64,000 nucleotides of DNA from an uncultured virus (IMG/VR IMGVR_UViG_3300032038_000017) (Duplodnaviria > Heunggongvirae > Uroviricota > Caudoviricetes), in the IMG/VR virus record IMGVR_UViG_3300032038_000017; one strand, 5' to 3'. Positions 6,595 to 62,703 of the stretch are shown piece after piece. The notes below the pieces were generated by a model. It ran no database searches, had not been told where the DNA came from, and saw nothing but the letters and a program-made list of their open reading frames with translations. Position 1 is the first letter of the stretch. Each line of letters begins with the position of its first letter. The position numbers and the translations under genes were made by a program.

Positions 6595-6603
6595 ATTTGG
6601 TAG

Positions 6604-6950: not shown

Positions 6951-6992
6951 GTTAATTAGTAAGAATGTAAGTTTTTCTATTAAAAATGTGTT

Positions 6993-7023
6993 TTTACAGG
7001 GTAAAAGTTCGCAAGGTTATAAT
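6993..7023 (+). promoter_or_regulatory. class A promoter
   Basis: TTTACA-GGGTAAAAGTTCGCAAGGT-TATAAT. Confidence 0.75.
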
Positions 7024-7046
7024 ATACAGACTAGAAGAGGTAAATT

Positions 7047-27900: not shown

Positions 27901-30900
27901 CAAAGGATATTCTTGAGTTAATTTATCAAACCAGAACTTGTGTTCTACATTAACTGTTTCTTTTGTAACTTGACCACTTTCATCAGTTGTTGTAGACTCT
28001 TCTTTTGTTATGTAAGAAGTCTTTAATATAAATCTCTGTTCATATACTGGGACACCGTCCTCAACGTTTCCAGTATCATAAGTAATGTTTGAGATTCTTG
28101 CTATTGCTGCTTCTTCATCAGTTTTTGAAGTATCTTCCAAAGAGTTTCCTAAAAGGTCAGTCGTTGAAGACAAGTACTGAACGAACTCTTTTGAGTCTGA
28201 GCTTGAGAACAAGTAATCTGAAATGTCCTTTATAAGCAAGCTGTTATTTGTAGACATCTTTACGTAAGGAACGTCATTATCGTAGCTAATTCCAAGGATA
28301 ACTGAGCCAGTTAAGTCCAAACGCTTACTGAACTCATCGTCACCTAAGCGAATAGACGGGTTACTTTCTGCTTCTTTCAATGAAGCATACAACGGTTGAT
28401 ATGCTACCTGAAAGAGCTCTTGTGCATAAGAGCCACGCATTTCGAGTGTTCCAAGAATACGTCTGTTACTTGTTTTATCTACAAAAATGTAATACTTTCC
28501 AGAAGCGTCACACAAGTAAACTGTGTCGCCATTACCGTTTGTCATAGCTACTGGTGTCTGAATAGTTTCGCCAGTGTCTGAATTGTATTTTGAAGTGTAT
28601 TCATACAAAGCATACTTTGTATCTTCGATTACTGCCGGATATCCGTATGGGTCGTAGGAATCGCTTGTAGTATCGAGGCTTTCTGGATTAAGAATTTCAC
28701 GATATGAGTAGAATCTGTTAGCCATGCTTACGTCGTCTACCATTGTTACCTCTGGAACACGTAAGTTACCCATTTCGCCAACATACTTTTCACCACGCTC
28801 CATGTTCAAGTATTCAAGTGAATTATTTATGTTTTCACGAACATTGAATGCCAACAATACGTCAAACTCTGAGTTTCCTTCCTTAGTTAATGCAGTCGTT
28901 ACGGTAATAGAACCACTTGTCTTAGACTGAACTATTACATTTTCACCAAATCTTACTGCCTTAGTAGAAAGAATATAGAAGCAGTTTGCACCTTCTGTAA
29001 ACATCATTCTATAATATCCAGAAGGAATAGAGTTAAGTTGGCTTGTTGAAGAAGACGTATCTGAAGGCTCATCATAGTCATTAGTTCCGGTTGTAGAGTC
29101 TACGTCGAACTCGTGTGCTAATGCAATGTCGCCATAATCGTCCATTTCCTTAGAACCGGTTGTTGTAGCGAAATCAAATAATCCGTCTTCGTCTTGTTCA
29201 ATATAATAGTAGTATTCAAGGTTGTCTTCATCACCAACGTTACGAACAAATACTTTGTATTCATTTTCTGCGAATACAACGCCAGATACATAAGAAGTCG
29301 AAGATGGTTCGCTAGAACCTTCCCACTCAAGCGACTTACCACTTGTAGATTTAAGTGTAGTCATGTTGAATGTGCTTCCCTTATCTGTTGAGTAAAGTAA
29401 TACTGGTGTTCCCTGGTTCTTGAACTTTGAAGGCTCAAGAAGTCTTGTTAAAACTTCTTTCTCGTCGTCACTTCTGTTGTCTTTCCAAGTCTGATATTCT
29501 GAATCTGTTTTATCACCACGGAAGAAGTCGTCATAAATTAATTCAATCTGTGTCTGTGAATAGATGTATCCACCGAACAAAATTATTTCTTCATTTGCAT
29601 AAGAACATTCAACGTGGAATGTGTTCTGCTTTGTTAAAACTTCAGGTCTTGGAATAGAAATTACCTGACTACCAATCTTATAATTTGAAGTTCCAAGAAC
29701 GTCTCTTTCAACTGCGTAGCAAGTCAATTCACGTGGGAATGAAGAAGCGTTCCAGTGTTCTGGATTTTCAATGTCGTCACGGTTATGCAAATAACAAAGA
29801 CCGATAGAGTTTATATTACCCCTTGTATCAGTTACCAACATGTTACTATCAGTAAACTGAATGTCGGAAATGTTAGAAGAAGAAACTATTTCTGTATTTT
29901 CTGCGTTACCACAAAGGTAGTATGTATAGTAATAAGCAAATGTTGCAAAGGCATGCTCATAATTAACCATTGGACCGTCGTCGATTAATTCAAATGCAGT
30001 GAAATATTTTGAAATGTCTGCGGCAGTTGGAGCCAATTCTGCAAATGTCTGCTTACTTGCACCTACTACATCATATCCGTCTGTTACTGTTTCGGTTACA
30101 AGTTTGAAACCATAACAACGGAATGTCCACTTAGTTCCACTATACTGAACCAAGAGTGGATAGCCGTCAGCATTAGAAATAACTTTATTTGAGCCGTCTG
30201 CTTTTACCCATTTACTTCCTACGCTAGATTTATTAGCTTTAGCGTAGTCCATTGCAGAAACCACGTTTTCATAAGTTACTACATTGTCGAACTCAATACT
30301 ATCACTGGTATAAACACCTTTATAACCGGAAATAGCCTTAAATACATCCCTAATGTTTCCAAGCAATGTATTGTCATAGTCAATACTCATTGCTCTTCCG
30401 TCAACGGTTATACCTGCGTTTCTGTTAGCAGTCAAATCTACACTATGGCCTAAGATTTCGAGCATTCTCATCATAGACATTTTAACCAAGTCATTTACTG
30501 CCTGTTTATCTGTTACAAGAGTAGAACGAATAGTTAAGAACATCTTTTCATTAAAAATTGGGGCATTTGCGTGCTTCCAAAGTGAGTTTGCTGTCAAGAA
30601 GCCATTGTATGAGTAGCCATTACTAAATCCACTATTTCCAGTCTTTGTTTTTTCAACAATAGACGTTGGGGATTTAACGAACAAGCTGCGTCCTTTTGCG
30701 TATACTGTATATTTTCCGGAGTTATCCTTTTTCAAAATAGAACGGCTTAACAATGTACTTGCGACTGGTATCTTAGAGCCATTTGCAGTTACAATCATTG
30801 AAGTGTCTGCAAAGTAAGGCTCTGAAATGTAGTTACTGTCAAGTTCATAAACATTTTTATCTGAACTGCTCTGTGTAAGTTTTGCACTTGAAAGAGCAAG

Positions 30901-33900
30901 GTCACGGTAAAGAACCATAATATCTGTATCGTCACCGTCACCACCTACAACGTAAGTATACTGTTTTCCAAGACCTTTGACTACTGCATTTTCGTCAAGG
31001 TCTGTCAATACCTCGTCAGATTTTTCATATGTATACTTTTCACCAGAAGGTTCTTCATTTCCGTAAGAATATTCTTTCCAAATACTTGCTTCTTCCGTTA
31101 TGTAAACCTTAGCAGTATATGTTGTATAGTTCACTGTTCCGTTAGTATTCTTCTCTGGGATTATTACGGAACCATTTGACTCTGATACAGAAGATGTTTC
31201 ATACAAAAGATACATTATAACGTTACCTTCGTTATCAATCTTTTCAACATTGTATGTTTCTGATGTTTTGAAGTTTCCGTCAAATGTATTTACAATTGTT
31301 TCTGAACTACTGTTATCAGTAATTGCAGCCTTAATAAACTCTTCTGCCTTTTCAATAGTTACTTTAACAGTATAATCAACATTATCACCGTCATAGATTT
31401 TTGTAGTCCAGATAGCATTATCAGAATTGTCATAAGAAATGTCTGTATCTTTGCTCATTATCTGGATACCTTCGGTTTTACCGTTATATCTAACTGTTAA
31501 AACACGAGGTGTCAAGTAGTCTTTATTGTATTCACCAAGAGTATGTCCTACCAATGTATGTTTGCTACCATTATCATAGTCAACATATACATGCTTACCA
31601 TTAGACATGTAAGCCTGTGAGAGGATAGATTTATTGTTACCGTTCTGGTCTATTGTTTCAGTAATGTCCAAAGAGCAGATAATAGAGGTCTTATCTTTCA
31701 AGTTGATTTCAACATACCAACCCAAGTCTTTAGACCAACCTACCATAACTACTTCGCCATTGTATCTTGAGTTTTCAAGATTATCATAAATAATAGACTT
31801 TTTACATACGATGTCGGAAGTTACACTAGCTACGTCAATATCATTATTGAAATAAACTACACCGTCTTTCTGAACAGCACGGAACTGACCATTTGCAAAG
31901 TAAGCATACTGGATTGACGCACCATTTACAGTCTGTCCGTCAACGCTAATTGAAATCTTAAATTTGTCTTCATTTCCAGTTGGACCAAGTGCATATGCAC
32001 CAACAAGAGTATCGCCAACGTTTACCTTTCCAATTGCGTTCTTGAATAAACTGCCATCAACATTAGGGGTCATAATAACCTTAGGGTTAGAAGTGTTAAT
32101 TTTTCCTCTAACAACAAGGTTATTCTTAAAATATTCAAACTCACGGTTAACAAATGTTGCTTCGTCCTTACCGTCATAAGAATCACTTAGCAAAGGCTTT
32201 GTAATAGAAATTTTTGACAACTGTGGATTTTCATACTCATCACCAAAGTCAATAGTTGTCTGCTCAGTAGCCAGCTCTGTTGAATAAGTGCTTGTAAGCT
32301 CATCAAACGTAGTATTAATAGGTATAAGGTTCATAACGTTTGTTATGAAGTTATACTTTTCTGTTGAGTTTGTTGGGTTATCTGGTAAGTAAGATAGATA
32401 AAGCTCATTATTTTCAGTTACACCCTTTACTGGGTAGTTTACATTAAAGTAATTACTAAAGAAGATAGGCTCCAGGCTTGTAGCATACAATGAACGTAAA
32501 TCAAGCTCCCTTACTTCCAAGAGTTTATCGCCTACTGCCAATTTGTCAATAGGGAACTCAAGACCATTTATACCAGTTAAAGTTGGTGTCTGCTTAATTT
32601 CTTGTTCACCAGATACCAATGCGTTTTTTACTTGATAAACACATGGCAATCTTAATGTGTTTTTGAAGAACTTCTGCTCATTAAACTTTATTGCAACCTT
32701 ATGCGTTTCTGTTCCCCAGCTTCCGTCTTCGTTCAAAAGGTTAGAGAATGTGTAGAATACGTCATTATCAGTGTCATAGTAAATTGAGCCCTTCGTTGTG
32801 CAGAACTTTACTTCTTTGTCTGTATTAATAGTCATGTTATCACTATTATACAAGTATCCAGTAGAAGTAAAATGTGGGTCAATCGTAAAATTAAAATTAT
32901 ATGAACCTTCCGTTATGTAACTACGTGGAAGGTTTATTGTTGAGTTAATTTTTCCAAGGAGTGAGTTAATACCACACTTCTGACTGTCTTCCATAAAGTC
33001 GGCTTCATCGAGGATAACACTGTATTCTGTATCAGTTACATACTGCCATTTAGAAATAGGTAAACTTATACCCAAGATGCTGTCAAGGTTAATCTTGAAT
33101 ACATACCATTCATTTTCGTCAGTTTCCGTAATTGTGCTTAAAGTACCACTTTCAGATTCTGCTGGGTTGAAGTTTATTAAAGCAACACGGTCACCAACAT
33201 CAAAGAAGTCATGATAATCTATACCGTCTGGTTCTTTAAGCCAGTCTCTATCACGTGTATTTTTCCAATAAACATCCGGATTATATTTTGTTTTGTCTGG
33301 GCTAAATGTTCCAGCATAAATCCAGTAGAGAATGCTGCTTCTGTGAATAGGTGTTATGTTTCCAAAATCTGCCAAAGCCTCTGGCAAGTTTATTTTAGAA
33401 GATAAGTCTGTACTATCAACATAGAATACTTTATCACCAAAACCAGTATTTCTTATTACTGTAGAATAATAGCTTGGTGATTTTGTATTTGCAGCTCGCA
33501 AATAATACTGCAAAAGTCTTTCCTTAAAGGTATATGTGTATTTTTTTGTAGCACCATTTTCACCTTTAAGGTTATCTGTACCAGTATCACTAAGGGATAG
33601 GTTAGAATCTGGTGTAACATTAACACGGTTATAAACGTCGTCTACGTCCTTTATATAGTCAAAACCGTCGCCCACAAGACCAAGGTACTGGAAGCTCTTA
33701 ACATACCAATTTTCTTGATAGTAAAATAAGACATCTGCACGCTTAAATGAACGTGTTGTCTGACCGGTAACTTTTCCGTCAACCCTTACAACAATGTTTG
33801 ACAAGTTAACGTCTTCTTCTACAACGTAATACTGCAAGTTTAATGGTGATTCTGGATAAACAAGCTCATACATGTTTGTCACTTTACCAGTTTCATCATA

Positions 33901-36900
33901 GTATGGTGTCTTAGTAGGAACCCAAACACCACCATAAATAAATGTGGTATCGTCGGTGGAACTACAACTTATAAGAACGTTGTTTTTAGTGAAGTCATTA
34001 CCAATAATCTTAATGTTTGATTCGTCCTCACCAAGATACTTCATTATGTTTGTAAAAGTCTGTGAGTAGAATGATGCCTGTGTGATAGAAAGCAGATTTT
34101 TCTGAGTACCTACATTATGTGAATACTTTGTTACGGTATCATATTCACCAAGTGGGATTTCAAACAGAGGACTTTCTACGCTTGTATATTTCGTTGAGTT
34201 CTTCCTTTTAAGGGTATCGGATTGGTCTTGACCATAAACACTTACGTTTCTAAGTTCACCATAGTTATTGTAGAACTCTGAATTTTCATCAAAAGTTGAT
34301 GGGTCTTTTACATTATCGTATACCTGATTACCCCAAACGCTTGGATATGTAATGTCCTCTGGTGATTTGAACCAGTTACGACGACTCTTACCACCATTAC
34401 CAATCTGTGCGTAACATGGTGTTGTCCAGTCGTTATCTTTAAGGTCACGCTCTGGCCACATGTCTTGACCATCAAGGTTCAAAGTAATAAACTTCAAACG
34501 AATCTGTGGGTCTGTATAGTCCATATTACTAAGCAATGTATAATATCCAGTTGTGTCTGTTTCCAACATAACGTTAACGCCAACATTAACATTATCAGTC
34601 GCACGAGAAGACTGCATTAAGCTGTCCTCAATATAATCAAGCCATTCAACAGACATAAGAATAGGGTTAGTCTTAGATTTTACAGTTGGATAGTAAAGAA
34701 GCTTATTTAAGTTAAACTCCAAGAATAATTCATTATTGAACTTTATGTCTGACGGCATTAAATACTGATTTTTTGAGCCGTCTTTATCTTCTACCAAGAT
34801 TTCATAATCGTCCCAGTGAGTATCTTCGAGAACTTTTGTAAATGAGTTACTTACGCCGTTCTGATAGTTATGTATATTATAGAATGAAACATCTGGCAAG
34901 CTATCAAGGATAGCAGTTGATACCTTAGGATAATCGGCAGAAGGCCAAAGACCGTGTTCAAAAGGATTTGTAACTGAGTACAAACCGTTATTGTAAAGCC
35001 TTTCCTTGTATTCCAACAAATTATCTGTAATGTCGCTTGGAGATACGTTTGTCTTTACATAATAATTCAAAACAAACGTTCCAGACTGTTGAAGATTTAC
35101 GTTTACTGTAACTTCATTATCACCGATATGTGTAATAAATACATCATTGTCGTCAGAATCTATACTTGGTCCGGTAACAATGTCACCAATTGAAAGCGAC
35201 TTAAACATTTCACGTGCTACGTCGCTTTCAAAGAAGATTACGTTCTCAAAGCCTTCGTGACTTACGTCGATAACAGATTCAATTTGAATTGTCTCACGGC
35301 TTATAGAGCAAACTGTAATGTTTGTATCTTCTTCATTCTTTTTACCAAGAGTATACAACCTGAGCACTTCGTCCATAGAAGAAACTGCTTGCTCATAATT
35401 ATTTAAGATTTCCTTTTTATTGTTTGTAGCGTCGAGAATGTTTATATAATCGTGTTGTGTGTAATCGTCTGAGGTTGTTACGTAGCTAAAGTTAAGTGAC
35501 TGACCATTTGGTGATTTTAATGTTACAGTTGTCTCCAAGATTTCAGGGTTACTTGTTGGAACGTGTTGAAGTGTTCCCTCAATGTTGTAAATAGAACAAA
35601 CGTTCAAGTTTCCAAGAGAAATAGCACCTACTTCACCTGCTAAGTAGCCAGACTTCTTTGTGAGAGTTACATAGTCTATTTGGTTCTGGTAAGAGCTTTC
35701 ATTAAATACTTCAACAGTAGAAGTTGTACCGTCTTCATTTACAATAGTTTTTGTAACTGTATCTGGTACTGTTTTAATCCCCAAAGCTTTTGTGCCTTGA
35801 AGAACATATAGAACCTTACATCCAGGATAAACAGTAGATTCTTCTGTTTCGTATTCTTCACCGTCAACTTCATAAGTAATTTTGTTATAAAGATACTCGC
35901 TATTCTTGCGCCAGTTTTCGATGTTCTCTTCGTACTGTAACATTTTCTTCACGTATTCCAAGAATGAAGGGTAATCTTTATCAGATTCTTTTATAGCTTC
36001 TTTGGCTTTCAAGTAAAGTTCGTCGTCTTCTGAGTAATAGTTTCTTGCAACTGTTTCGTCAAAGCCATTTGCAACGTAAGCGTTCACATAATCTTGGTTT
36101 GTCCATTCGTGTGTATCACTTGAACCAGTTGCAGTAAGCTGTCTTACTGTTTCTGGATAGTCCTCGTAAAGGCTTTCCATCATGCTATCAGTCTTTTCAA
36201 ATGGAATAGCAGCTATGTCAAAATGCTCTGATGTCAGTATGTAACGACCGGCGGAAGGTGTTGTTTTTACAGTTAACTTACCTTCAAGAACAATAAGGTC
36301 ACCGTTCTCATTTTCAATTACGATACCGTTACTATCGTCAACTCTTTGAGTTTCTTCAATGTTAAATACTGGTGCATTTTCTGAGGCTTCTGTTTCGTCA
36401 ATTATAATATCCACATAACCCTTAGTAAAGTTGGTAACTTGAATTGTTGATTTAACAGTATTTGTATTACTGTCTGATAAGTCTTCAATTGCAAGGTATG
36501 TACCTTTTTCAATACAGTCCCAAACTATTTCTGTTTCAGGAACGTAGAATGAGCCTTTGTAATCCTGATTATCACCACTGTATGCTTCAATTCCGACTGA
36601 ATGAGGGTAGAACGAAATTGTATTACTTGGTGTAGTAAACAATGTATCTTCAACAAGAGGGTTATAGATTACTGGGAACTTTTTAACTATCCCCTTCATT
36701 ACATCTTTTGTGAAACCTTCACCAGTATATGTTGAGTAATAAATAGACAAGAAGTTGTACTGTTCAAAGTCGCTAGGCTTTTTATCTTCTTTAAGGAATG
36801 TATCATGAGCATTATTTTCAATAGCGTTGTATTCTTCTTGTGTCAATGTCTTACTCGACATTGGGGGATACGCACACAATTCCTTATAGATAATCTTGTT

Positions 36901-38256
36901 CTTACTTGTAGTAGTTACGCTATGAATTTCCTCTGTTATCTGTGAATCAACATCAATTCTACTACCCAGAGAGTTCGTTGCGTCCAAGCTTATTCTAAGC
37001 AAAGAAATGTCTTCGTTCTTGTTCTTTATGTAATTTGTAGCATGGTCATACTCATTTATAGAAATTTCGTTTGATATTTCAAAAGCAGAGAACATTGAAG
37101 ACGTATCAGAACAAGCTGGTGCTTCGAATACTGTATATTCATTAAATGGTAATGAGTAACCGAAAGCATAATTATTCATGTCCTTTGGCTTTGGGTATGA
37201 AGAATTGCTTCCGTCGTAATCTACAAGACGGAACTTTCTGTTGTAGTGTTTTGAGTAAGTGTCAATTACACGATTTCGTTGTCTAATGTAATCATTGTAT
37301 TTTGACGTATCGTAGCTATGACCAGTAGATTCATTCCACTCTTTTAATTGGTCTACATCTATCATCGGACTTACTGGTGAGTAGCTATTTTTATAATTTT
37401 CTATTTCTTCTTCGCTTGCACCAGAAGCTTCGAGCTCGTCTAAGTGCTCGTTATATTCAGAAGTCTTGATAACTGTATTACTATCTACAGTGCTCTTCAT
37501 GTAAGTTGTACCGACTTCTTTCAAATAGGTCTTTTTATCAACTGGCTTAATTGGCAGATATGTAGCAACTGGAAAAACTGTTGCATTTTGGAAGATATCG
37601 CTTGCCAACATCCTAAATCCAAGTTTAGAACCGTAAACACGCTTTCTGAAGCCTTCATTTTTAAGGTTTCTAATTTTAAGCATTGCCGCTTCAATTTCTT
37701 CGTCTGAAGCATTAATACCTAATGAGGATGCAACTGTATCAAAGAATTTTACATTTGGTTCATAATCAATTACTGCACCGGCATTGATTATCATGTCGTT
37801 AAACTCGTTTTCTGTTAGGAGTGCAGTCATGTCTGGATGGTCTGGATACATTGTACCTAGATAACGATATACTTCATGTAAGAGGAAATCGAACTCTGGC
37901 AATAATACGCCATATTCTTCGAGTCTATGATATGTTTCGTTTTTAGAGGCTTCTGGACCGTATTGAACGTCTTCTACAATTTTACCGTTTACCATTTTAT
38001 AGTAAACTTCGCCTGAATCAATACCGTCTTCGTGAGATTTTTCGTAATATTTTGTTCCGTCACTAGGGTTTGTTCTTTCTACGTCGATTTCATAAGGGAG
38101 ACCAAACTCTACGTCTGTAAATCCTAAAATCCACTTCCAAAGGTCTGTCTGTAACACTGTGTTCAGTCCACCAAACATGTCATAAGGTGGAATTTCATTT
38201 GTGAAATGGATTCTTTTTTCGATGTCAAACTCGGAGCGACTTGTGTATAAACTCAT
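24928..38256 (-). CDS. giant (4442 aa) baseplate/tail-fibre structural protein
   Basis: Directly downstream of the gp6-like wedge; N-terminal RKRVYGSKLGF resembles wedge gp7/P2 gpI; Asp-box YSTDKGSTF; C-terminal EVTEFGLFNKYHQLIAYAVFPPI resembles the tail-collar motif. Confidence 0.75.
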   Translation of the reverse strand: MSLYTSRSEFDIEKRIHFTNEIPPYDMFGGLNTVLQTDLWKWILGFTDVEFGLPYEIDVERTNPSDGTKYYEKSHEDGIDSGEVYYKMVNGKIVEDVQYGPEASKNETYHRLEEYGVLLPEFDFLLHEVYRYLGTMYPDHPDMTALLTENEFNDMIINAGAVIDYEPNVKFFDTVASSLGINASDEEIEAAMLKIRNLKNEGFRKRVYGSKLGFRMLASDIFQNATVFPVATYLPIKPVDKKTYLKEVGTTYMKSTVDSNTVIKTSEYNEHLDELEASGASEEEIENYKNSYSPVSPMIDVDQLKEWNESTGHSYDTSKYNDYIRQRNRVIDTYSKHYNRKFRLVDYDGSNSSYPKPKDMNNYAFGYSLPFNEYTVFEAPACSDTSSMFSAFEISNEISINEYDHATNYIKNKNEDISLLRISLDATNSLGSRIDVDSQITEEIHSVTTTSKNKIIYKELCAYPPMSSKTLTQEEYNAIENNAHDTFLKEDKKPSDFEQYNFLSIYYSTYTGEGFTKDVMKGIVKKFPVIYNPLVEDTLFTTPSNTISFYPHSVGIEAYSGDNQDYKGSFYVPETEIVWDCIEKGTYLAIEDLSDSNTNTVKSTIQVTNFTKGYVDIIIDETEASENAPVFNIEETQRVDDSNGIVIENENGDLIVLEGKLTVKTTPSAGRYILTSEHFDIAAIPFEKTDSMMESLYEDYPETVRQLTATGSSDTHEWTNQDYVNAYVANGFDETVARNYYSEDDELYLKAKEAIKESDKDYPSFLEYVKKMLQYEENIENWRKNSEYLYNKITYEVDGEEYETEESTVYPGCKVLYVLQGTKALGIKTVPDTVTKTIVNEDGTTSTVEVFNESSYQNQIDYVTLTKKSGYLAGEVGAISLGNLNVCSIYNIEGTLQHVPTSNPEILETTVTLKSPNGQSLNFSYVTTSDDYTQHDYINILDATNNKKEILNNYEQAVSSMDEVLRLYTLGKKNEEDTNITVCSISRETIQIESVIDVSHEGFENVIFFESDVAREMFKSLSIGDIVTGPSIDSDDNDVFITHIGDNEVTVNVNLQQSGTFVLNYYVKTNVSPSDITDNLLEYKERLYNNGLYSVTNPFEHGLWPSADYPKVSTAILDSLPDVSFYNIHNYQNGVSNSFTKVLEDTHWDDYEILVEDKDGSKNQYLMPSDIKFNNELFLEFNLNKLLYYPTVKSKTNPILMSVEWLDYIEDSLMQSSRATDNVNVGVNVMLETDTTGYYTLLSNMDYTDPQIRLKFITLNLDGQDMWPERDLKDNDWTTPCYAQIGNGGKSRRNWFKSPEDITYPSVWGNQVYDNVKDPSTFDENSEFYNNYGELRNVSVYGQDQSDTLKRKNSTKYTSVESPLFEIPLGEYDTVTKYSHNVGTQKNLLSITQASFYSQTFTNIMKYLGEDESNIKIIGNDFTKNNVLISCSSTDDTTFIYGGVWVPTKTPYYDETGKVTNMYELVYPESPLNLQYYVVEEDVNLSNIVVRVDGKVTGQTTRSFKRADVLFYYQENWYVKSFQYLGLVGDGFDYIKDVDDVYNRVNVTPDSNLSLSDTGTDNLKGENGATKKYTYTFKERLLQYYLRAANTKSPSYYSTVIRNTGFGDKVFYVDSTDLSSKINLPEALADFGNITPIHRSSILYWIYAGTFSPDKTKYNPDVYWKNTRDRDWLKEPDGIDYHDFFDVGDRVALINFNPAESESGTLSTITETDENEWYVFKINLDSILGISLPISKWQYVTDTEYSVILDEADFMEDSQKCGINSLLGKINSTINLPRSYITEGSYNFNFTIDPHFTSTGYLYNSDNMTINTDKEVKFCTTKGSIYYDTDNDVFYTFSNLLNEDGSWGTETHKVAIKFNEQKFFKNTLRLPCVYQVKNALVSGEQEIKQTPTLTGINGLEFPIDKLAVGDKLLEVRELDLRSLYATSLEPIFFSNYFNVNYPVKGVTENNELYLSYLPDNPTNSTEKYNFITNVMNLIPINTTFDELTSTYSTELATEQTTIDFGDEYENPQLSKISITKPLLSDSYDGKDEATFVNREFEYFKNNLVVRGKINTSNPKVIMTPNVDGSLFKNAIGKVNVGDTLVGAYALGPTGNEDKFKISISVDGQTVNGASIQYAYFANGQFRAVQKDGVVYFNNDIDVASVTSDIVCKKSIIYDNLENSRYNGEVVMVGWSKDLGWYVEINLKDKTSIICSLDITETIDQNGNNKSILSQAYMSNGKHVYVDYDNGSKHTLVGHTLGEYNKDYLTPRVLTVRYNGKTEGIQIMSKDTDISYDNSDNAIWTTKIYDGDNVDYTVKVTIEKAEEFIKAAITDNSSSETIVNTFDGNFKTSETYNVEKIDNEGNVIMYLLYETSSVSESNGSVIIPEKNTNGTVNYTTYTAKVYITEEASIWKEYSYGNEEPSGEKYTYEKSDEVLTDLDENAVVKGLGKQYTYVVGGDGDDTDIMVLYRDLALSSAKLTQSSSDKNVYELDSNYISEPYFADTSMIVTANGSKIPVASTLLSRSILKKDNSGKYTVYAKGRSLFVKSPTSIVEKTKTGNSGFSNGYSYNGFLTANSLWKHANAPIFNEKMFLTIRSTLVTDKQAVNDLVKMSMMRMLEILGHSVDLTANRNAGITVDGRAMSIDYDNTLLGNIRDVFKAISGYKGVYTSDSIEFDNVVTYENVVSAMDYAKANKSSVGSKWVKADGSNKVISNADGYPLLVQYSGTKWTFRCYGFKLVTETVTDGYDVVGASKQTFAELAPTAADISKYFTAFELIDDGPMVNYEHAFATFAYYYTYYLCGNAENTEIVSSSNISDIQFTDSNMLVTDTRGNINSIGLCYLHNRDDIENPEHWNASSFPRELTCYAVERDVLGTSNYKIGSQVISIPRPEVLTKQNTFHVECSYANEEIILFGGYIYSQTQIELIYDDFFRGDKTDSEYQTWKDNRSDDEKEVLTRLLEPSKFKNQGTPVLLYSTDKGSTFNMTTLKSTSGKSLEWEGSSEPSSTSYVSGVVFAENEYKVFVRNVGDEDNLEYYYYIEQDEDGLFDFATTTGSKEMDDYGDIALAHEFDVDSTTGTNDYDEPSDTSSSTSQLNSIPSGYYRMMFTEGANCFYILSTKAVRFGENVIVQSKTSGSITVTTALTKEGNSEFDVLLAFNVRENINNSLEYLNMERGEKYVGEMGNLRVPEVTMVDDVSMANRFYSYREILNPESLDTTSDSYDPYGYPAVIEDTKYALYEYTSKYNSDTGETIQTPVAMTNGNGDTVYLCDASGKYYIFVDKTSNRRILGTLEMRGSYAQELFQVAYQPLYASLKEAESNPSIRLGDDEFSKRLDLTGSVILGISYDNDVPYVKMSTNNSLLIKDISDYLFSSSDSKEFVQYLSSTTDLLGNSLEDTSKTDEEAAIARISNITYDTGNVEDGVPVYEQRFILKTSYITKEESTTTDESGQVTKETVNVEHKFWFDKLTQEYPLKKKRYLSALALVPYCFKAGITAYKNMGFDDISGTDYSLPNPITGVYLSNFGYGGSRSNTTFWENTVPWLVDPDAFTLGEYLTNSLDEPVYMVDASGKVLKSYDAEQEKKVGDTFSINASFLGTKDSKDLYVYSNANNTYKKKVMKLGSGGVSVYTPISDFKLGTTPFCINLWAYQSYKLVDIDKDANGNPNISFKYYGKTGKDTYRYVPCGGTTKLTVGNKSIYDFEYDENSKMLKFVKPDVLQQAFYVSPSNEIDIQSLLVTFYVNNQKYELKFGLTLDFEIDERFEEGVKVKSLVVTGNSNSSIYFDSYAIYQKQSSYELIKMNLVNAEESYKDYTNKSSLNLVISRVDEDGNPKVDSISVLDASNNSVLSSLYDSSIVGYDEGVNGGIVFNMQSAQGDLNNTVKLYVGGTVSVKLPIFMLGNVTTVCDYVVDKIEEGKVTEDSWVRKTYIDNICLDDLTSLYVSYNEETLEVLLSNTAKKGIATTIYNSTVIGKYNNTKPSLFSSELNKGYYLNMRDGSVLLNDTQKLSVEIVKYDTYNELSNNVYVNGFYGKVICRKPVYNTFKNLLDAKGFVINKGDDSILYTGTTNDTLTVGMTGEDNNISLSEMLDIAGFNDGEKHYINMRWLTQSTIRTEIANCNVDSEFTEISISEKSKFTPDRVWFNPDGYPVPPVVIGNNIFNSANNEQYSDTSYKNNNGYSVYRCNENGYLVGYTRSTDSSVISSYDNNNDGLPEAAEGYIKNDDGTIDSVAVEFVLDPLKNVLSDAQIPKAPIYETCQDWFKNEFYIKGKESNPYWQVLNVTSVFNKNHVWEQKLSVNEYVRSTQEMVMSKVATEDQYVVPKRTILVDVKDDICTIQSNADPVDKKAGSISFVLDKPASKYQTEKQFIKYGITAQNPFYGSSVWDGSNLSLSSYIDSTYTVCSTQNLADPRDKESEIQEVTEFGLFNKYHQLIAYAVFPPIEYRTSTQHISFTAYVKQGSCVDPSSL

Positions 38257-57817: not shown

Positions 57818-58669
57818 CTATTTTAGCAAAGCCAATACGTTCTGTGACTGGCTGTTTGCCTGAGCAAGCATTGCAGTAGCGGCAGACTGAAGAATCTGGT
57901 CTTTTGTATACTCAACAACCTCTTTTGCCATGTCTGTATCACGGATACGGCTTTCTGCTGCCTGGGTATTTTCTGCTGCAACATTGATACCTTTCTGTGC
58001 CATCTCCATACGGTTCTGATAAGCACCAAGGTCTGCTCTCTGTTTATTTACATTTTTTAATGCTTCGTCGATTGTTGAAAGTGTTTTGCTTGCATCGTCT
58101 GGACTGTTTACAGAAATTATGTTTGACTCGTCACCCTGTTGTCCTTTAAGACCAAGAGCAGTTGCAGTCATTGTTCCAATGTAAGCACGAATGTTCTGGT
58201 CTACGTTAGCACCAATCTGGAACTGCATAACTGTATCTGACTCACGAGCGAAACGTCCAGTTAAAAGGTTCATACCGTTAAACTGTGCAGAACTTGAAAT
58301 ACGGTCTACTTCTGCTACCAACTGCGATACCTCTACGGCAATCTGCATACGGTCTTCATCCGAATAAACGCCGTTTGAAGCCTGAACTGCCAGCTCACGA
58401 ATACGCTGGAGAACGTCTGTTGTTTCTGCCAAGTATCCTTCTGAAACCTGAACGAAAGAAACTGCGTCACCAATGTTGCGTGAAGCCTGATTAAGACCAC
58501 GAATCTGTGAACGCATTTTTTCTGATACTGCAAGACCAGAAGCGTCGTTACCTGCCTTGTTAATTCTTTCTCCAGAAGAAAGTCTTTCCATAGCAGACTG
58601 CAAGCTTGCGGCATTGAGCCCTTCTTGACGACTAGCAAACAAGCTAGACATGTTGTGATTAATTACCAT
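57818..58669 (-). CDS. flaB: flagellin, spirochete periplasmic filament core protein FlaB
   Basis: [72 protein letters not shown]; 283 aa with no D2/D3 domains. Confidence 0.97.
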
Positions 58670-58778: not shown

Positions 58779-59156
58779 CTATTCTTCCCACTCAAAGTCT
58801 TCCTTTGCGTCAGACGCACGGGAAGCTGCCGTTGCTACACCTGGACGTGAACGGTCACTTGCAGGAGCAACCGTTGAAGCAGAAACAACCTTGCCTTTTT
58901 TGAGTTTCTGTTTGCTTACAACGTCCTTTACTTTTTTATTTGAAACAGGTCCATAAATGAACTTGTTGTCACTTAGTTTGACATAATCCTTAAAACCAGT
59001 AATGGTAATAATGGATTCGTCGTCGAGTTCCTGTCCTACGCTTATTGCACCGTTTGTTGAACGTGCCTTGCCTTGAATCTGAACTACTGTATATGTTTCG
59101 GCAGAAAGCAATAAAGACATTAGGAAAATCGCTCCAAATAGCAATATTTTTTTCAT
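58779..59156 (-). CDS. exported protein with FecR-like beta-strand N-terminal domain
   Basis: Signal peptide; YTVVQIQGKA...VGQELD...ITG..YVKL; C-terminal TAASRA; GGGGAGG SD. Confidence 0.6.
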   Translation of the reverse strand: MKKILLFGAIFLMSLLLSAETYTVVQIQGKARSTNGAISVGQELDDESIITITGFKDYVKLSDNKFIYGPVSNKKVKDVVSKQKLKKGKVVSASTVAPASDRSRPGVATAASRASDAKEDFEWEE

Positions 59157-59171
59157 ATAAACCTCCCCAGT

Positions 59172-59348
59172 TTATACCAATAAATCAATCAAGTGCTGAG
59201 ACTTCTCGTCTTCACTTGAACCCTCTTTCTTTTCTTCTAAAACTTTTTGATTAATTTCTTCGACTTTTTGTATTAAAGCTTTATTAGCTTTACCCTCCAG
59301 TCTGGACACCAAAGACGGTGGTTTAATGATAACATTAGGCACCTTCAT
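59172..59348 (-). CDS. small 58-aa protein (not in the ORF track)
   Basis: ATG at 59348 with AGGAG SD, open to TAA at 59172, directly upstream of the 58779-59156 gene. Confidence 0.45.
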   Translation of the reverse strand: MKVPNVIIKPPSLVSRLEGKANKALIQKVEEINQKVLEEKKEGSSEDEKSQHLIDLLV

Positions 59349-59547
59349 ACACGCAAACTCCTTTTTGCTAGTTATAAAGACTTACACAAATGCAAGCCAA
59401 CCTCAATGTTGACTCTTATGTAATTAGTTATTTTAACCCTGTCCACCCTATTAACATTATATTAATTTTTGTATTTATCGGCGAACTACACTAATTATTT
59501 ATAAGATTAAACTATAAACTAATTTTGTACAAAATAGGAGTAATAAA

Positions 59548-60552
59548 ATGGCAAGAGAGAACGTAGATAGTCTAATTGACGAATTAGACGATTTCGCAGC
59601 AGACATCTCAAGCATTGCTAACGATAATAAAGCAGTTACATTTATTATTGGTCTTGAACAACTTGCAAATGACAGTGCATCTTTCGGTGGTAAAATCGCA
59701 CAGATTTGTCCGGCAAAGATTAGGGAGCAGAAGGCGGCTCTTGAAAACGCACTTAAACAGTTTGCAGAGTCTTGTAAGGGTGTAGCAAACAACCTTACTG
59801 GTCTTAAAGAAATGCTTGAAAACATGCCACTTAAAGAGTTGCGTGGTACAAACCTTAATTCCGCAACTGCAAAAGCACAAGTTGAAAAATCAATCGGTAT
59901 TGACAATAATGGCGTAGAAGCACAGACACCAGTAATGGCACCAGACGCACCGGCTAATGTAAGTGCTTCAACCGGTCCAAAGTCTGCTATGCTTCAAGCT
60001 AATGAGTCTTCTGTCTGGAGCAACCTTAAAGGTCAGTTCCGTTTCACAGAAAGTTTAAAGTCTGGATTCGACTGGGGTTCCATTTCTGAAAACGTAGACG
60101 CACTTAATATCGACGTAAGTGCTACAACAGAAGGACCAAAGCAGACACTCTTTGAATCTATCATTTCAAGTGGTCTTCCAAAGTCAGCAGGTGACCTTAA
60201 TTCTAAGCCGGACCCACGTGATTCTTATGACTACAATTCTGAATATGCAGACGTTCTTCCTGGCGAAGTTCCACACTTTGCAGAAGCACAAGCACCAGTT
60301 GTACAGAAATCAACGGTTCAGCACATGACAGAAAGCGTTGCAGAGCCAGTAAGCTCTAAACCCGGAGACATAAACACACAAGCACACAGTCTTTTTGAAA
60401 ACTCTGAATCGGTAAGCTCTATGGCTTCACTTTCAGAAACTATTAAAGCTTTTGGAAACAGTAAAGACTTCGACTTCGAAAACTTGGATTTGGAATTAGA
60501 AAACACAGATAGAATTTCAGACATGAGTCTGGAAGGACACCTTGTGGAATAA
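59548..60552 (+). CDS. hypothetical late protein (possible head-internal/scaffold protein)
   Basis: 334 aa; AGGAG SD; ACTAATTA upstream; many X-X-E-S/N sites (ANES, FTES, LFES, MTES, LFEN). Confidence 0.75.
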   Translation: MARENVDSLIDELDDFAADISSIANDNKAVTFIIGLEQLANDSASFGGKIAQICPAKIREQKAALENALKQFAESCKGVANNLTGLKEMLENMPLKELRGTNLNSATAKAQVEKSIGIDNNGVEAQTPVMAPDAPANVSASTGPKSAMLQANESSVWSNLKGQFRFTESLKSGFDWGSISENVDALNIDVSATTEGPKQTLFESIISSGLPKSAGDLNSKPDPRDSYDYNSEYADVLPGEVPHFAEAQAPVVQKSTVQHMTESVAEPVSSKPGDINTQAHSLFENSESVSSMASLSETIKAFGNSKDFDFENLDLELENTDRISDMSLEGHLVE

Positions 60553-60605
60553 ATGCTTTCCCCTTATTTAAAAACAATTTAACAATCTGTTCATTTAAAA
60601 ACAAC

Positions 60606-60634
60606 AAAGCCTGGACAAGTATCCAGGCTTTTTT
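60606..60634. terminator. bidirectional terminator
   Basis: AAAGCCTGGA-CAAGTA-TCCAGGCTTT. Confidence 0.8.
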
Positions 60635-60638
60635 AATT

Positions 60639-61145
60639 TGTAGGATTCGCACCTACCGTTCAAGTATAATGTGCGACTGCGTTCCCTTTCACACTTAGGT
60701 TCTCGCATACTTGAACGCCATAAAGACGTTACTCTAAATGGTTTTTCCGAACCTCTTCTTTCCTGCTAATCTACTTATACAATAAACAATAGGTGCCCCA
60801 ATTAGCGTTTAATGTATAAGACGCAGTTTTTCATGTGTTAATTCACAAGTCACCCAAATGGAAAGTAGGTCATTTGAAGCCCAAGAAACATGTCTTGAAC
60901 CAAACTCATTAGCCTTTTTACGCCTATTCGTAAGGATATAAAGGGCAACAAATCCAAACGCTTTATAAAGTAAGCTTTTCGCAAAGCCTACAATGGGCTG
61001 GTAGCGATTAAGCTACCCCAGTTCACACGTGCTCGCTGCAACGGCTTGGCTACCGTAATCTCGTATGGAATTAGCATACTCTGAAACTAAACGCACTCCT
61101 GGCTTAAACTCCAGCTTTTCACATAAGGTAGTGGAGCCACCTTAT
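60639..61145 (-). ncRNA. putative ~505-nt large ornate ncRNA (GOLLD/ROOL-like class)
   Basis: ORF-free; TTAATAT at 61151-61157; more than ten helices with minus-strand G-U pairs, several pseudoknots, terminal T-loop-like hairpin GUAGG-UGCGAAU-CCUAC, then a terminator. Confidence 0.75.
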
Positions 61146-61153
61146 AATTTATA

Positions 61154-61501
61154 TTAACTGCTAAATGACTCATAAAAGTCTATTGAACGTTTTATGTCGT
61201 TCATAAAAAGTCGAAGCTTTACGAGGTAGTCTTCTACTGAGATTTCTTCAACTTTGTAATTGTTCTTGTCATTAAGCTCTTGACCCATTAACCAGACTTC
61301 TGGATAATACCTAAAGGTGTTGTTCTTTGGGTTATAGTCAACTACTTTATAGCAATACAAGTTGCCCAAGTTTTTATAATCCTTAGAATCAAGTGCACCC
61401 TTTTCAACCTTGAAATAAGTTTCCCAAGGTTCAAACAAGTCTGGTTGCAAGTCTGGCTTGTAAGCCATCTTATAGAACTTTCCTTCTTCAAGGTTAACCA
61501 T
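61154..61501 (-). CDS. hypothetical protein
   Basis: GGAGG SD; small-gene operon. Confidence 0.7.
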   Translation of the reverse strand: MVNLEEGKFYKMAYKPDLQPDLFEPWETYFKVEKGALDSKDYKNLGNLYCYKVVDYNPKNNTFRYYPEVWLMGQELNDKNNYKVEEISVEDYLVKLRLFMNDIKRSIDFYESFSS

Positions 61502-61511
61502 ACTTTACCTC

Positions 61512-61871
61512 CTATCGCCAGAACCCTAAGAACTCTATCGGAGCCGTAGTTTCTACTGCGACTTCTTCAAGAGCTACGTGTTTAAGAATTGGAATCCAAG
61601 TAGATACATTTCCTTTTACAACCGAAATAGAATTACTCCCACGTGAAGAGTATACATTGTACCCATAAACATTAAGAACTTGATACTCTTTAATATCGTC
61701 TGGCGTATAATACACACAATACTTTATAGTTCCGGGTTGCTTGCCAGTTACACAGTCTTGTTTCTTGAAGAATAAGTCCAACCCAAACACAATCCCTGCT
61801 ACAAGCACTATTGGAATAATAACATCCTTTAGACAGTCTAAAATCTTTTCTTTTCTACTTTTATAATACAC
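61512..61871 (-). CDS. single-TM hypothetical protein
   Basis: N-terminal TM VIIPIVLVAGIVFGL; GTG start. Confidence 0.65.
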   Translation of the reverse strand: MYYKSRKEKILDCLKDVIIPIVLVAGIVFGLDLFFKKQDCVTGKQPGTIKYCVYYTPDDIKEYQVLNVYGYNVYSSRGSNSISVVKGNVSTWIPILKHVALEEVAVETTAPIEFLGFWR

Positions 61872-61882
61872 TGTAAACCACC

Positions 61883-62290
61883 TTACGCAATCTTGTACAA
61901 GTTCCAGTTTATTCTCATGTTCTTTACAAAGTAATCCCAGTTCTTTTGTCCAGCTAATCTTATGAATGCTTCCTTAGAATGGACTACTTCATAAAGGGGT
62001 TTATCGTCCCTACCAAGAAATACCAATACTGGATAGACATATGAATAGCCATCGTCGTTTTCCTTACGGAACGCTAAAACGTATAGAAGGTCATTCCAAC
62101 CTTTCATGTATACGTCTGTTACAGACAGTGCCCCGAAAGAATAAGGTAAGTCGTCAAACAATACCCTAAATCCGTCATTACTTGACCAAAGTTGAAGGCG
62201 TTTACAGTTTACGGTTACTTCCTGTTCAAGATACCATTTGATTAGCTTGCGTCTTTTTCTACCCCTAATAAGCTTGTTTAAGATACTCAT
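61883..62290 (-). CDS. hypothetical protein
   Basis: AGGAG SD; same operon. Confidence 0.7.
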   Translation of the reverse strand: MSILNKLIRGRKRRKLIKWYLEQEVTVNCKRLQLWSSNDGFRVLFDDLPYSFGALSVTDVYMKGWNDLLYVLAFRKENDDGYSYVYPVLVFLGRDDKPLYEVVHSKEAFIRLAGQKNWDYFVKNMRINWNLYKIA

Positions 62291-62292
62291 AC

Positions 62293-62703
62293 CTAGCTCC
62301 TTGTGTCCATAAACGATTGTATAGAGTTGATTGTTTCCTTAGTCTTTTCTTCCTTTGTTATATCTGAAAGCAACTCGTTTAATGACTTCTTATAAAATGT
62401 CAAAGTCATAAGAGTTGTGTCTACACCGTCTATTTTAGCCTTGATTAGCCCGCCACGAACTTTATTACCAATGTTGTCCTTAGTCTTGTGAAGATGAAAG
62501 TAATCTAATGCAGCACTTATCCAACCCAATGCCTCTACTTCATAAAAAAGTTTTTTACTGGCTTCCGGAGACACTACCGTTACCTTACCAGACGCTTTAA
62601 TCTTATTAGCCAAAGTATTTATAGACTCTTCCGAGCCTAGTTCCAGTAATGTAGATAAACCAGTATTTTCGTCTTTATCAGTTACAAGGTAGTATTTTTC
62701 CAT
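62293..62703 (-). CDS. hypothetical protein
   Basis: TTAATAT 7 nt before ATG. Confidence 0.7.
   Translation of the reverse strand: MEKYYLVTDKDENTGLSTLLELGSEESINTLANKIKASGKVTVVSPEASKKLFYEVEALGWISAALDYFHLHKTKDNIGNKVRGGLIKAKIDGVDTTLMTLTFYKKSLNELLSDITKEEKTKETINSIQSFMDTRS

What the first reader, a model, noticed from the sequence alone, without database searches (positions are those of the whole stretch)
60639..61145. ~505-nt pseudoknot-rich ornate ncRNA with a tRNA-like 3' T-loop hairpin
Seen on the minus strand: it starts 5-7 nt after TTAATAT with hairpin AUAAGGUGG/CUACCUUAU. Further stems are GUAUG/CAUAC, ACGGU/GCCGU, GGUAGC/GCUACC, GUAGGCU/AGCUUAC and CAAAUG/CAUUUG, plus an 11-bp stem (60707-60717 with 60657-60667). 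An H-type pseudoknot forms from 60813-60820/60774-60781 crossing 60801-60806/60765-60770. Two long-range loop pairings are 60821-60826 with 60677-60682 and 60749-60754 with 60697-60702. It ends in GUAGG-UGCGAAU-CCUAC (60640-60656) followed by a terminator. Established: GOLLD and ROOL are large phage-associated ornate RNAs of unknown function. Inference: this is a divergent member of one of them or a new class.
Basis: partly seen in the sequence, partly recalled or inferred. Interest (0 to 1): 0.74.

Follow-up and report, generated by a model that had tools for sequence, protein, structure and literature searches.

The report
Abundant uncatalogued RNA in rumen phage

Summary
The stretch 60630-61159 (minus strand) is an ORF-free gap between convergent genes of a large phage. 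The 6-8 bp "pseudoknot" and long-range pairings occur no more often than in shuffles. The folding z-score is not distinctive against coding controls. No Rfam 15 family matches, even at E<=10, so GOLLD, ROOL, OLE and raiA are all excluded.

Two results still point to a real RNA gene. In relatives from bovine gut runs the block differs at 12 of 1219 aligned bases, against 226 of 4456 in the flanking genes. The conserved block begins exactly where some relatives carry a 660-nt insertion. In metatranscriptome contigs, pieces inside the block reach depth of about 6000, against 327-602 for the neighbouring contigs; a DNA run is flat.

The 3' hairpin is a genuine tRNA-type T-arm. The same 17 bases close a cloverleaf tRNA-like gene in another viral contig. 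Twenty-six bases are identical to a small CCA-ending tRNA-like RNA of T4-like phage contigs.

Verdict: probably a new large phage ncRNA family. Architecture and function are unproven, because no divergent homologues could be fetched.

The parts
60630..61159 (-). Conserved cassette, the proposed ncRNA gene (about 515-530 nt of RNA plus the -10-like box)
   Evidence: It is ORF-free. Relatives differ at 0 of 371, 8 of 530 and 4 of 318 bases here, against 1.1-8.9% in the flanks. Contigs of two RNA runs carry a 660-nt insertion exactly at 61159/61162 (table 5).
61151..61157 (-). TTAATAT, a -10-like box overlapping the stop codon of the upstream 115-aa gene; a possible promoter element or processing region
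   Evidence: Read from the sequence. No matching -35 was found by the scan, so the true 5' end is unknown.
61122..61146 (-). 5' hairpin: 10-bp stem with loop CUCCA
   Evidence: mean pair probability 0.95.
61041..61056 (-). Hairpin ACGGU/GCCGU
   Evidence: probability 0.76.
60994..61020 (-). Hairpin GGUAGC/GCUACC with an outer UGG/CCA
   Evidence: probabilities 0.93 and 0.66.
60970..60991 (-). 9-bp hairpin capped by a GCGA (GNRA-type) tetraloop
   Evidence: probability 0.93. The loop was read. The GNRA classification is recalled knowledge.
60903..60954 (-). Long interrupted hairpin domain (helices of 9, 5, 3 and 3 bp)
   Evidence: probabilities 0.63-0.87. Thermodynamic prediction only.
60878..60901 (-). 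9-bp hairpin GGUUCAAGA/UCUUGGGCU
   Evidence: probability 0.94.
60763..60826 (-). Imperfect palindrome or long hairpin (CUUAUACA/UGUAUAAG and UAAACG/UGUUUA), overlapping the very deep RNA-library pieces at 60781-60871
   Evidence: (probabilities 0.91-0.93; I2). Depths of 6030 and 6483 come, table 8.
60657..60717 (-). 11-bp stem (CGUUCAAGUAU/AUACUUGAACG) enclosing a branched insert. Its 3' strand can alternatively pair with GUUUAAG at 61109-61103.
   Evidence: the 11-mer occurs in 14 of 500 shuffles. The alternative pairing is (probability 0.52).
60640..60656 (-). tRNA-type T-arm: 5-bp stem with 7-nt loop UGCGAAU
   Evidence: probability 0.91. The same 17 nt occurs in the cloverleaf element of L003 and in the tRNA-like RNAs of L001, L002 and L010. 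The one listed variant, 60641 T>C, turns U:A into U:G.
60596..60631 (-). Bidirectional intrinsic terminator (11-bp G+C-rich stem plus U tract)
   Evidence: (probability 0.97). RNA-run contigs from two studies stop at 60614, while a DNA contig runs through.

Best explanation
The gap encodes a stand-alone or operon-terminal non-coding RNA of roughly 515-530 nt on the minus strand. It runs from about 61150 to the intrinsic terminator at 60631-60606, in a large phage of the cattle and sheep gut. It accumulates far above the neighbouring messages and is held almost invariant while the genes around it drift. I read it as a structural RNA of the GOLLD/ROOL kind but of a separate family. In this reading, a body of several stable hairpins acts as a scaffold or decoy. 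Its 3' end carries a tRNA 'elbow' mimic (a T-arm stacked next to a long stem) that engages something which normally recognises tRNA T-arms, whether host tRNA-processing or modifying enzymes, the ribosome, or a tRNA-directed defence.

Shown: absence of coding capacity, the complementarities, the terminator, the T-arm identity, the lower divergence, and the higher depth in RNA libraries.

Inferred: the strand, the 5' end, the overall fold, any multimer formation, and the tRNA-mimic role.
For: (1) Conservation. 12 differences in 1219 aligned bases (0.98%) inside the block against 226 in 4456 (5.07%) in the flanking genes of the same contigs, Fisher p = 7e-13. The RNA is the least divergent segment in each of X1, X17 and X18.

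(2) The conserved block starts at 61159, exactly where contigs of two RNA runs from different studies carry 660 other letters (table 5). It ends at the terminator. It therefore behaves as a discrete cassette.

(3) RNA-library depth. In X18, 60-nt pieces at 60781-60840 and 60812-60871 have depth 6030 and 6483, against 327 and 602 for the adjoining contigs. The RNA-bearing contigs of X17 and X11 have 224 and 102, against 20.8 and 19 for the convergent gene. The DNA run X1 is flat at 10-15.

(4) No coding capacity. There is no ORF longer than 44 aa and the code is standard. The 67-aa open frame has no relative among 5.8 billion proteins.

(5) Strand. The minus-strand MFE is -162, against -142 kcal/mol for the plus strand. 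The T-arm and GNRA-type loop read correctly only on the minus strand. The 26-nt identity to the L001, L002 and L010 RNAs, whose direction is fixed by their CCA end and terminator, matches the minus strand.

(6) The only listed variant in the block (60641) keeps the T-stem paired, U:A to U:G.

(7) The stem 5' of the T-arm is kept by one-sided changes between the window and L001/L002/L010: C:G/U:G, A:U/G:U and A:U/G:U (read).

(8) It is widespread. 20 of 24 listed runs from 13 studies hold part of the 3.5-kb stretch, 6 of them RNA runs.
Against: No covariation test was possible. Only near-identical relatives were seen, and their differences inside the block are not listed.

Folding energy is not distinctive: 2 of 14 coding controls do as well, and the plus strand has the better z-score. 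The short pairings are at chance level.

All laid runs are contigs. These cannot show strand, ends or true level, and depth is one figure per contig. RNA libraries can also contain DNA (caveats printed).

The low divergence could reflect recent exchange of a mosaic cassette rather than constraint.

There is no recognisable promoter. RNA contigs run on from the block into the upstream gene, so the RNA may be only the tail of an mRNA.

The tRNA-like part has no acceptor stem and no CCA, and neither ARAGORN nor the Rfam tRNA or tmRNA models see it.
Confidence: 0.55

Rival explanations
1. It is the long, stable 3' untranslated tail of the upstream minus-strand operon. It would be a degradation-resistant by-product protected by its hairpins and terminator, with no function of its own.
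For: The block begins 3 nt upstream of the stop codon of the 115-aa gene, and no promoter is found. RNA-run contigs bridge from the block into the upstream gene (X11 record 11, X17 record 16, X18 record 25).
Against: A functionless tail should diverge at least as fast as the coding flanks, yet it is five times less divergent. In two runs a 660-nt insertion separates it from the upstream gene without disturbing it. Depth of about 6000 against at most 602 implies an accumulating species.
Confidence: 0.15
2. It is a non-coding mosaic or mobile cassette recently exchanged among rumen phages. In that case the low divergence reflects recency, not constraint.
For: The boundaries are sharp at 61159 and at the terminator. 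Neighbouring content is variable (the 660-nt insertion). Divergence is uneven between the two flanks, 3.4% against 8.9% in X17.
Against: There are no terminal inverted or direct repeats beyond chance-sized ones, no tandem repeats, no second copy in 64 kb, and no mobility gene nearby. This reading does not explain the very high RNA depth.
Confidence: 0.1
3. It is a highly divergent member of ROOL or GOLLD that the Rfam models miss.
For: It has the same habitat as the first ROOL sequences (cow rumen) and is phage-borne, of similar length and highly abundant. GOLLD can carry covalently linked tRNAs (PMC12286853, passages seen).
Against: There is no hit to RF03087 or RF02032 at E<=10 on inputs of 541 or 1001 bases, where the filters are at their laxest. 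There are no tRNA genes in the 64-kb window. I ran no positive control with a known ROOL.
Confidence: 0.05
4. It is a DNA-level element (replication origin, packaging site or regulatory region), or simply spacer whose stems are chance.
For: The stretch is rich in inverted repeats (8 pairs in 751 nt), and the folding statistics are not exceptional.
Against: There are no iterons or tandem repeats. Depth in RNA libraries exceeds that of the flanks while the DNA run is flat. The T-arm identity to tRNA-like genes points to an RNA-level feature.
Confidence: 0.07
5. It hides a small protein gene: the 44-aa TTG ORF at 60850-60984 or the 37-aa ORF at 60595-60708.
For: These short ORFs exist on the minus strand.
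Against: The 67-aa frame containing the 44-aa ORF has no relative in the protein collection. The 37-aa ORF runs through the T-arm and terminator. Conservation spans all 530 nt, not one ORF.
Confidence: 0.03

Closest known systems
ROOL RNA (Rfam RF03087, 574 model positions)
   Same: Both are phage-borne, occur in cow rumen, are roughly 0.5-0.65 kb long and reach very high cellular abundance. Neither has a known protein partner, and both have many hairpins (PMC12286853, passages).
   Different: There is no match to the covariance model at E<=10. There is no tRNA island nearby. Nothing is known here about multimer formation.
GOLLD RNA (Rfam RF02032, 416 model positions)
   Same: Both are large phage RNAs. 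GOLLD is often next to tRNAs or carries them covalently (PMC12286853). This RNA carries a tRNA-type T-arm module at its 3' end.
   Different: There is no match to the model. This RNA is shorter and has only a partial tRNA-like module, without acceptor stem or CCA.
Small CCA-ending tRNA-like RNA behind a DUF4338/DruA-like gene in T4-like phage contigs (L001, L002, L010; not catalogued as far as I could find)
   Same: 26 consecutive bases are identical, covering the 3' strand of the stem before the T-arm plus the whole T-arm. The topology is also the same: stem, one G, then T-arm.
   Different: Those RNAs are about 67 nt and fold into a cloverleaf-like shape with an acceptor stem and UCCA. The window's RNA is about 520 nt, has a 39-nt insert (60668-60706) enclosed by its 11-bp stem, and lacks the acceptor and CCA. 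The two phages share no protein: 19 ORFs of L015 against the window gave 0 hits.
tRNA and the tmRNA tRNA-like domain
   Same: It has a 5-bp stem with a 7-nt T-loop. The identical T-arm closes a cloverleaf next to a 6-tRNA cluster in L003, which I read as anticodon GUA with a long variable arm.
   Different: There is no acceptor stem, D-arm or CCA. ARAGORN finds 0 genes, and there is no Rfam tRNA or tmRNA hit at E<=10.
OLE (RF01071) and raiA (RF03072) RNAs
   Same: They are large or abundant structured bacterial RNAs of unclear function.
   Different: There is no model match. Those families are chromosomal and bacterial, not phage-borne.

Membership tests
ROOL (RF03087) | Match to the family covariance model (gathering score 99.1 bits) | tested here: not met
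   There were 0 hits at gathering on the whole window. ROOL was not among the 12 hits at E<=10 on 60400-61400, nor was it the single hit on 60625-61165. No positive control was run.
ROOL (RF03087) | Encoded in phages or prophages, often near tRNA islands | tested here: inconclusive
   The phage context is met: baseplate wedge PHROGs at E = 4e-16 and Baseplate_J. There are 0 tRNA genes in 64 kb. Only a T-arm module is present.
ROOL (RF03087) | Assembles into an RNA-only homo-oligomeric cage | not testable with these tools
   This needs SEC, mass photometry or cryo-EM.
GOLLD (RF02032) | Match to the family covariance model, which covers the conserved 3' region (gathering score 150 bits) | tested here: not met
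   There was no hit at E<=10. The accession was checked.
OLE (RF01071) | Match to the family covariance model (gathering score 50 bits) | tested here: not met
   There was no hit at E<=10. The accession was checked.
raiA (RF03072) | Match to the family covariance model (gathering score 101.3 bits) | tested here: not met
   There was no hit at E<=10. The accession was checked.
tRNA / tmRNA | Cloverleaf or tRNA-like domain with acceptor stem and a 3' CCA or discriminator | tested here: not met
   ARAGORN found 0 genes. There was no tRNA or tmRNA model hit at E<=10. The sequence after the T-arm runs straight into the terminator.
tRNA-type T-arm | 5-bp stem with a 7-nt loop whose first and fifth bases are U and A (the T-loop rule is recalled knowledge) | tested here: met
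   GUAGG/CCUAC with loop UGCGAAU (pair probability 0.91). The identical 17 nt closes cloverleaf folds in L003 and in L001, L002 and L010. The second loop base is G where tRNAs usually have U (recalled).
Structured ncRNA in general | Compensatory base changes in homologues | not testable with these tools
   No divergent homologue was found. Searches: phages and plasmids by blastn; viral contigs with five DNA patterns and three flanking or nearby proteins; metagenome contigs; genome contigs. The differences inside the block in the laid contigs are not listed.
Rho-independent transcription unit | G+C-rich hairpin followed by a U tract at the 3' end | tested here: met
   11 pairs, 5 of them G-C, then GUUGUUUUUA. 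Pair probability 0.97.

The most novel reading that the evidence does not exclude
This is the founding member of a new class of large phage RNAs that are among the most abundant phage transcripts in the rumen. The RNA would fold or assemble without protein, as ROOL and GOLLD do, and display a tRNA-elbow mimic. An unrelated T4-like phage lineage encodes the same 26-nt module in a miniature CCA-ending tRNA-like RNA. On this reading the module is a shared tool by which different phages capture or blind a host factor that reads tRNA T-arms.
Probability: 0.15. Interest if true: 0.85.

Novelty: new variant of a known kind. Interest (0 to 1): 0.6.

Why it matters
Large, highly structured phage RNAs such as GOLLD and ROOL have been known since 2009-2017. 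They were recently shown to build RNA-only cages, yet their function is still unknown (PMC12286853, passages seen). A further, unrelated family would give an independent handle on what such RNAs do. This one is widespread in cattle and sheep gut data, extremely abundant in metatranscriptomes, and carries a recognisable tRNA-type module. It would also be an obvious new target for structure determination. The 26-nt module shared with a small tRNA-like RNA of unrelated phages suggests a concrete, testable point of contact with host tRNA biology.

Tried and rejected
Homologue hunting found only near-identical relatives.
- blastn 'distant' against phages gave no match at E<=1e-5 or E<=10. Plasmids also gave none.
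- IMG/VR scans with three core words of 19-22 nt gave 0 hits each.
- IMG/VR searches with the two flanking proteins and the baseplate protein gave no usable locus.
- Flanking proteins had no Pfam, PHROG or PADLOC family. Their Atlas scores were 0.81-0.87, below the tool's lead threshold.
- The upstream protein had no tblastn hit in phages.

T-arm 18-mer. Three genome hits (Pseudomonas, Dongia, Porphyromonas) contain no tRNA. By my estimate about 17 hits are expected by chance in 596 Gb, so I treat these as chance. L009 is a chance hit inside a G+C-rich coding region.

Other negative checks:
- No second copy of the RNA lies in the window.
- The L001-L003 records hold nothing beyond the T-arm module. 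L010's record was not held and was not searched.
- Alternative genetic codes were rejected. Under TAG=Q a 110-aa frame opens and code 4 adds little, but TAG ends 16 of 60 genes and TGA ends 5 of 60.
- An origin or iteron reading was rejected: no tandem or iterated repeats.
- tmRNA, including permuted forms, was considered because of the GGC-UCCA in the 5' hairpin loop. I rejected it: ARAGORN finds none, and no acceptor strand follows the T-arm.
- I first thought the L002-family RNA belonged to a Druantia defence island because of its DruA hit. I rejected this because the contig is a T4-like replication module with UvsW, gp46/47-like, gp45 and gp44.

Limits of the control run.

Parts of the laid stretch without cover in some runs (for example X11 at 59351-59467 and X18 beyond 62276) are not interpreted.

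Earlier scan notes showed no look-alike of this sequence in other windows.

Literature searches (listings only) turned up no description of this RNA. The candidates of PMC10690425 could not be compared by sequence.

Full report
WHAT IS THERE

The finding lies in a 601-nt gap (60553-61153). On one side is a plus-strand 334-aa gene ending at 60552. On the other is a minus-strand 115-aa gene ending at 61154. The longest ORF in the gap is 44 aa.

The window uses TAA, TAG and TGA as stops: 39, 16 and 5 of 60 genes. The frames that open under TAG=Q or code 4 are therefore not evidence of coding. A 67-aa stop-to-stop frame from the gap has no relative among 5.8 billion predicted proteins of 36-118 aa.

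The window looks like part of a large phage. It holds baseplate wedge families (phrog_6 at E = 4e-16, Pfam Baseplate_J), a DnaK-like gene whose tblastn relatives include uncultured 480-735-kb phages and Lak phages at 47-54% identity, a 4442-aa ORF and a flagellin gene. There are no tRNA or tmRNA genes in the 64 kb.

CHECKING THE OBSERVATION

The T-arm-like hairpin (60656-60640) is followed by a strong bidirectional terminator at 60631-60606.

The short pairings carry no weight, however. In 500 dinucleotide shuffles of the 529-nt RNA, perfect 6-mer pairs average 45.1 +/- 8.8 against 54 observed, and 90 of 500 shuffles reach 54. For 8-mers it is 3.2 against 5, with 133 of 500. Only the 11-bp stem is unusual, 0.03 against 1, with 14 of 500.

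The minus-strand fold is -162 kcal/mol with z = -2.68, or z = -2.24 without the terminator. Of 14 coding control segments of the same length, 2 do as well or better, over a range of +0.67 to -3.40. The plus strand has the better z-score, -3.57 to -3.84, although its energy is weaker in absolute terms at -142.

In the partition function, these have mean pair probabilities of 0.76-0.97:
- the 5' hairpin,
- ACGGU/GCCGU,
- GGUAGC/GCUACC,
- the 9-bp GCGA-capped hairpin,
- CUUAUACA/UGUAUAAG,
- the T-arm,
- the terminator.

GUAUG/CAUAC also does not reach 0.5. So the letters are there, but neither thermodynamics nor counting shows an 'ornate, pseudoknot-rich' fold.

KNOWN FAMILIES

Rfam 15 (4227 models) gives nothing at gathering thresholds over the whole window. 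At E<=10 it returns 12 hits on 60400-61400: several terminator look-alikes, the strongest MicC at 23 bits against a threshold of 90, plus other weak chance hits. On 60625-61165 it returns one (snR8 at 19 bits against 45).

ROOL = RF03087, GOLLD = RF02032, raiA = RF03072 and OLE = RF01071 are all in the library. None appears. I ran no positive control with a known member.

EVIDENCE THAT IT IS NEVERTHELESS A REAL RNA GENE

Twenty of 24 listed public runs, from 13 studies, hold part of 59000-62500. They are almost all bovine or sheep gut, and 6 are RNA libraries. I laid contigs of one DNA run (X1) and three RNA runs from three studies (X11, X17, X18) on that stretch.

(a) Conservation. Records covering the block differ from the window at 0 of 371 bases (X1), 8 of 530 (X17) and 4 of 318 (X18). 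The same or adjoining records differ at 11 of 974 and 19 of 519 (X1), 38 of 1103 and 68 of 762 (X17), and 90 of 1098 (X18) in the flanking genes. Pooled, that is 0.98% against 5.07%, Fisher p = 7e-13, and the block is lowest in each run. Of the 40 best-supported single-letter differences listed, one (60641) lies between 60640 and 61240. A further 237 are not shown.

(b) Boundaries. In X17 and X18 the alignment breaks at 61159/61162 with 660 other letters between. The conserved block therefore starts 14 nt before the 5' hairpin, includes the TTAATAT box, and is separable from the upstream gene. X11's contig runs through without the insertion.

(c) Abundance. In X18, 60-nt pieces at 60781-60840 and 60812-60871 have depth 6030 and 6483, while the adjoining contigs average 327 and 602. 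Even if all words of those contigs came from their RNA part, the part would average at most 2334 and 5344. In X17 and X11 the RNA-bearing contigs have 224 and 102, against 20.8 and 19 for the convergent gene. The DNA run is flat at 10-15.

(d) Ends. RNA contigs of two studies stop at 60614, inside the terminator, while a DNA contig and the X18 contig run through. By the tool's own standard this is a weak hint.

The caveats printed by the tool apply. Contigs give one depth each, and cannot show strand or ends. RNA libraries can also contain DNA.

STRAND

Four lines favour the minus strand:
- Its fold is 20 kcal/mol lower, reflecting G-U pairs.
- The GNRA-type loop reads correctly only on that strand.
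- The T-arm reads correctly only on that strand.
- The 60641 variant gives U:G on the minus strand but A:C on the plus strand.

THE tRNA-LIKE END

The 18-mer covering the T-arm is unique in the window, even allowing 2 mismatches. In IMG/VR it occurs in three contigs.

In L003 it closes a cloverleaf fold beside six called tRNA genes. I read this as anticodon GUA with a long variable arm. ARAGORN and Rfam do not call it.

In L001 and L002, and in the metagenome contig L010 found with a relaxed pattern, it belongs to a roughly 67-nt RNA. That RNA lies downstream of a 426-aa DUF4338/DruA-like gene (E = 4e-18). It has an acceptor stem, a 3-bp D-like hairpin, a 7-8-bp arm, the T-arm and a 3' UCCA, followed by a terminator. 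ARAGORN calls nothing in L001 or L002, and Rfam at gathering thresholds calls nothing there either.

The identity between the window and these RNAs extends to 26 consecutive bases, 28 of 29 by blastn. It covers the 3' strand of the stem preceding the T-arm. That cannot be chance once the 18-mer is given. The 5' strand of that stem differs between the window (GUUCAAG locally, or GUUUAAG at 61109-61103) and L001/L002/L010 (GUUUAGG or GUUUGGG), but always pairs.

The L002 contig is a T4-like replication module with UvsW, gp46/47-like, gp45 and gp44. It shares no protein with the window: 0 hits from 19 ORFs.

The window's RNA lacks an acceptor stem and CCA.

Three exact 18-mer hits in 185,579 species genomes are not tRNAs and are within chance expectation. 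The module therefore does not copy a common host tRNA.

WHAT IT MOST LIKELY IS AND DOES

The best reading (confidence 0.55) is a discrete, highly expressed, selectively constrained phage ncRNA of a family not in Rfam. It is comparable in kind to ROOL and GOLLD: phage-borne, rumen-associated, abundant and linked to tRNAs (PMC12286853, passages only). It is not a member of either. Its mechanism is inferred only: a folded scaffold or decoy whose 3' T-arm module mimics the tRNA elbow.

The rivals are:
- a stable but functionless 3' UTR (0.15),
- a recently exchanged mosaic cassette (0.10),
- a DNA-level element or chance (0.07),
- a divergent ROOL or GOLLD (0.05),
- a small protein gene (0.03).

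WHAT COULD NOT BE DONE

No divergent homologue could be fetched. Searches of the phage and plasmid collections, of IMG/VR and of metagenome and genome contigs found none. There is no paralogue in the window. No covariation test was therefore possible, and the secondary structure in the parts list is thermodynamic prediction only.

Earlier notes of this scan list several other uncatalogued large phage RNAs, one from a rumen phage that is likewise far more abundant than its neighbours. None is a sequence look-alike of this one.

Literature searches (listings only) found no description of this RNA.

Noticed in passing
L002:1463-1529 (+); L001:1495-1561 (-) by my count; L010:1469-1535 (+) by my count: A conserved tRNA-like RNA of about 67 nt sits directly after a DUF4338/DruA-like gene in T4-like phage contigs. 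It has an acceptor stem, a tiny D-like hairpin, a 7-8-bp arm, a T-arm, an encoded UCCA, a terminator and what reads by eye as its own promoter. ARAGORN calls nothing in L001 or L002, and Rfam at gathering thresholds calls nothing there either.
   Followed up: partly
L003:1490-1572 (-): A cloverleaf element sits next to six called tRNA genes. I read it as anticodon GUA with a long variable arm and an 8-bp acceptor. Neither ARAGORN nor the Rfam tRNA model calls it. It has the same T-arm as the window's RNA.
   Followed up: partly
window 61159-61162: Contigs of two RNA runs from different studies carry 660 extra letters here, between the upstream gene and the RNA block.
   Followed up: no
window 57818-58669 (-): A complete flagellin gene (Flagellin_N at E = 5e-41, Flagellin_C at E = 2e-25) lies inside what looks like a phage genome, 2 kb from the RNA.
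   Followed up: no
window 24928-38256 (-): A single 4442-aa ORF lies next to baseplate-like genes. It was not analysed.
   Followed up: no
window 10898-12793 (-): A DnaK/Hsp70-like gene (phrog_22485 at E = 2e-258). Its tblastn relatives at 47-54% identity include uncultured 480-735-kb phages and Lak phages.
   Followed up: partly
window 6509-7046 and 59157-59547: Two further gaps, of 538 and 391 nt, have no ORF of 80 aa or more. Neither has an Rfam hit at gathering thresholds. They were not folded, because the control run stopped for time.
   Followed up: no
window 60718-60722 and 60694-60699 (-): UAUGG and CCUAAG lie 18 nt apart. From recall, these are the two strands of the 11-nt GAAA-tetraloop receptor. 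By eye I found no helix-closed GAAA tetraloop in the RNA, and the intervening bases are claimed by the 11-bp stem, so this may be chance.
   Followed up: partly
window 60638-60650 with 60981-60993, and 60649-60660 with 60785-60796: Both halves of the T-arm have alternative partners of 12-13 nt elsewhere in the RNA, 83-85% complementary (I4 and I6). This could be a conformational switch or chance.
   Followed up: no
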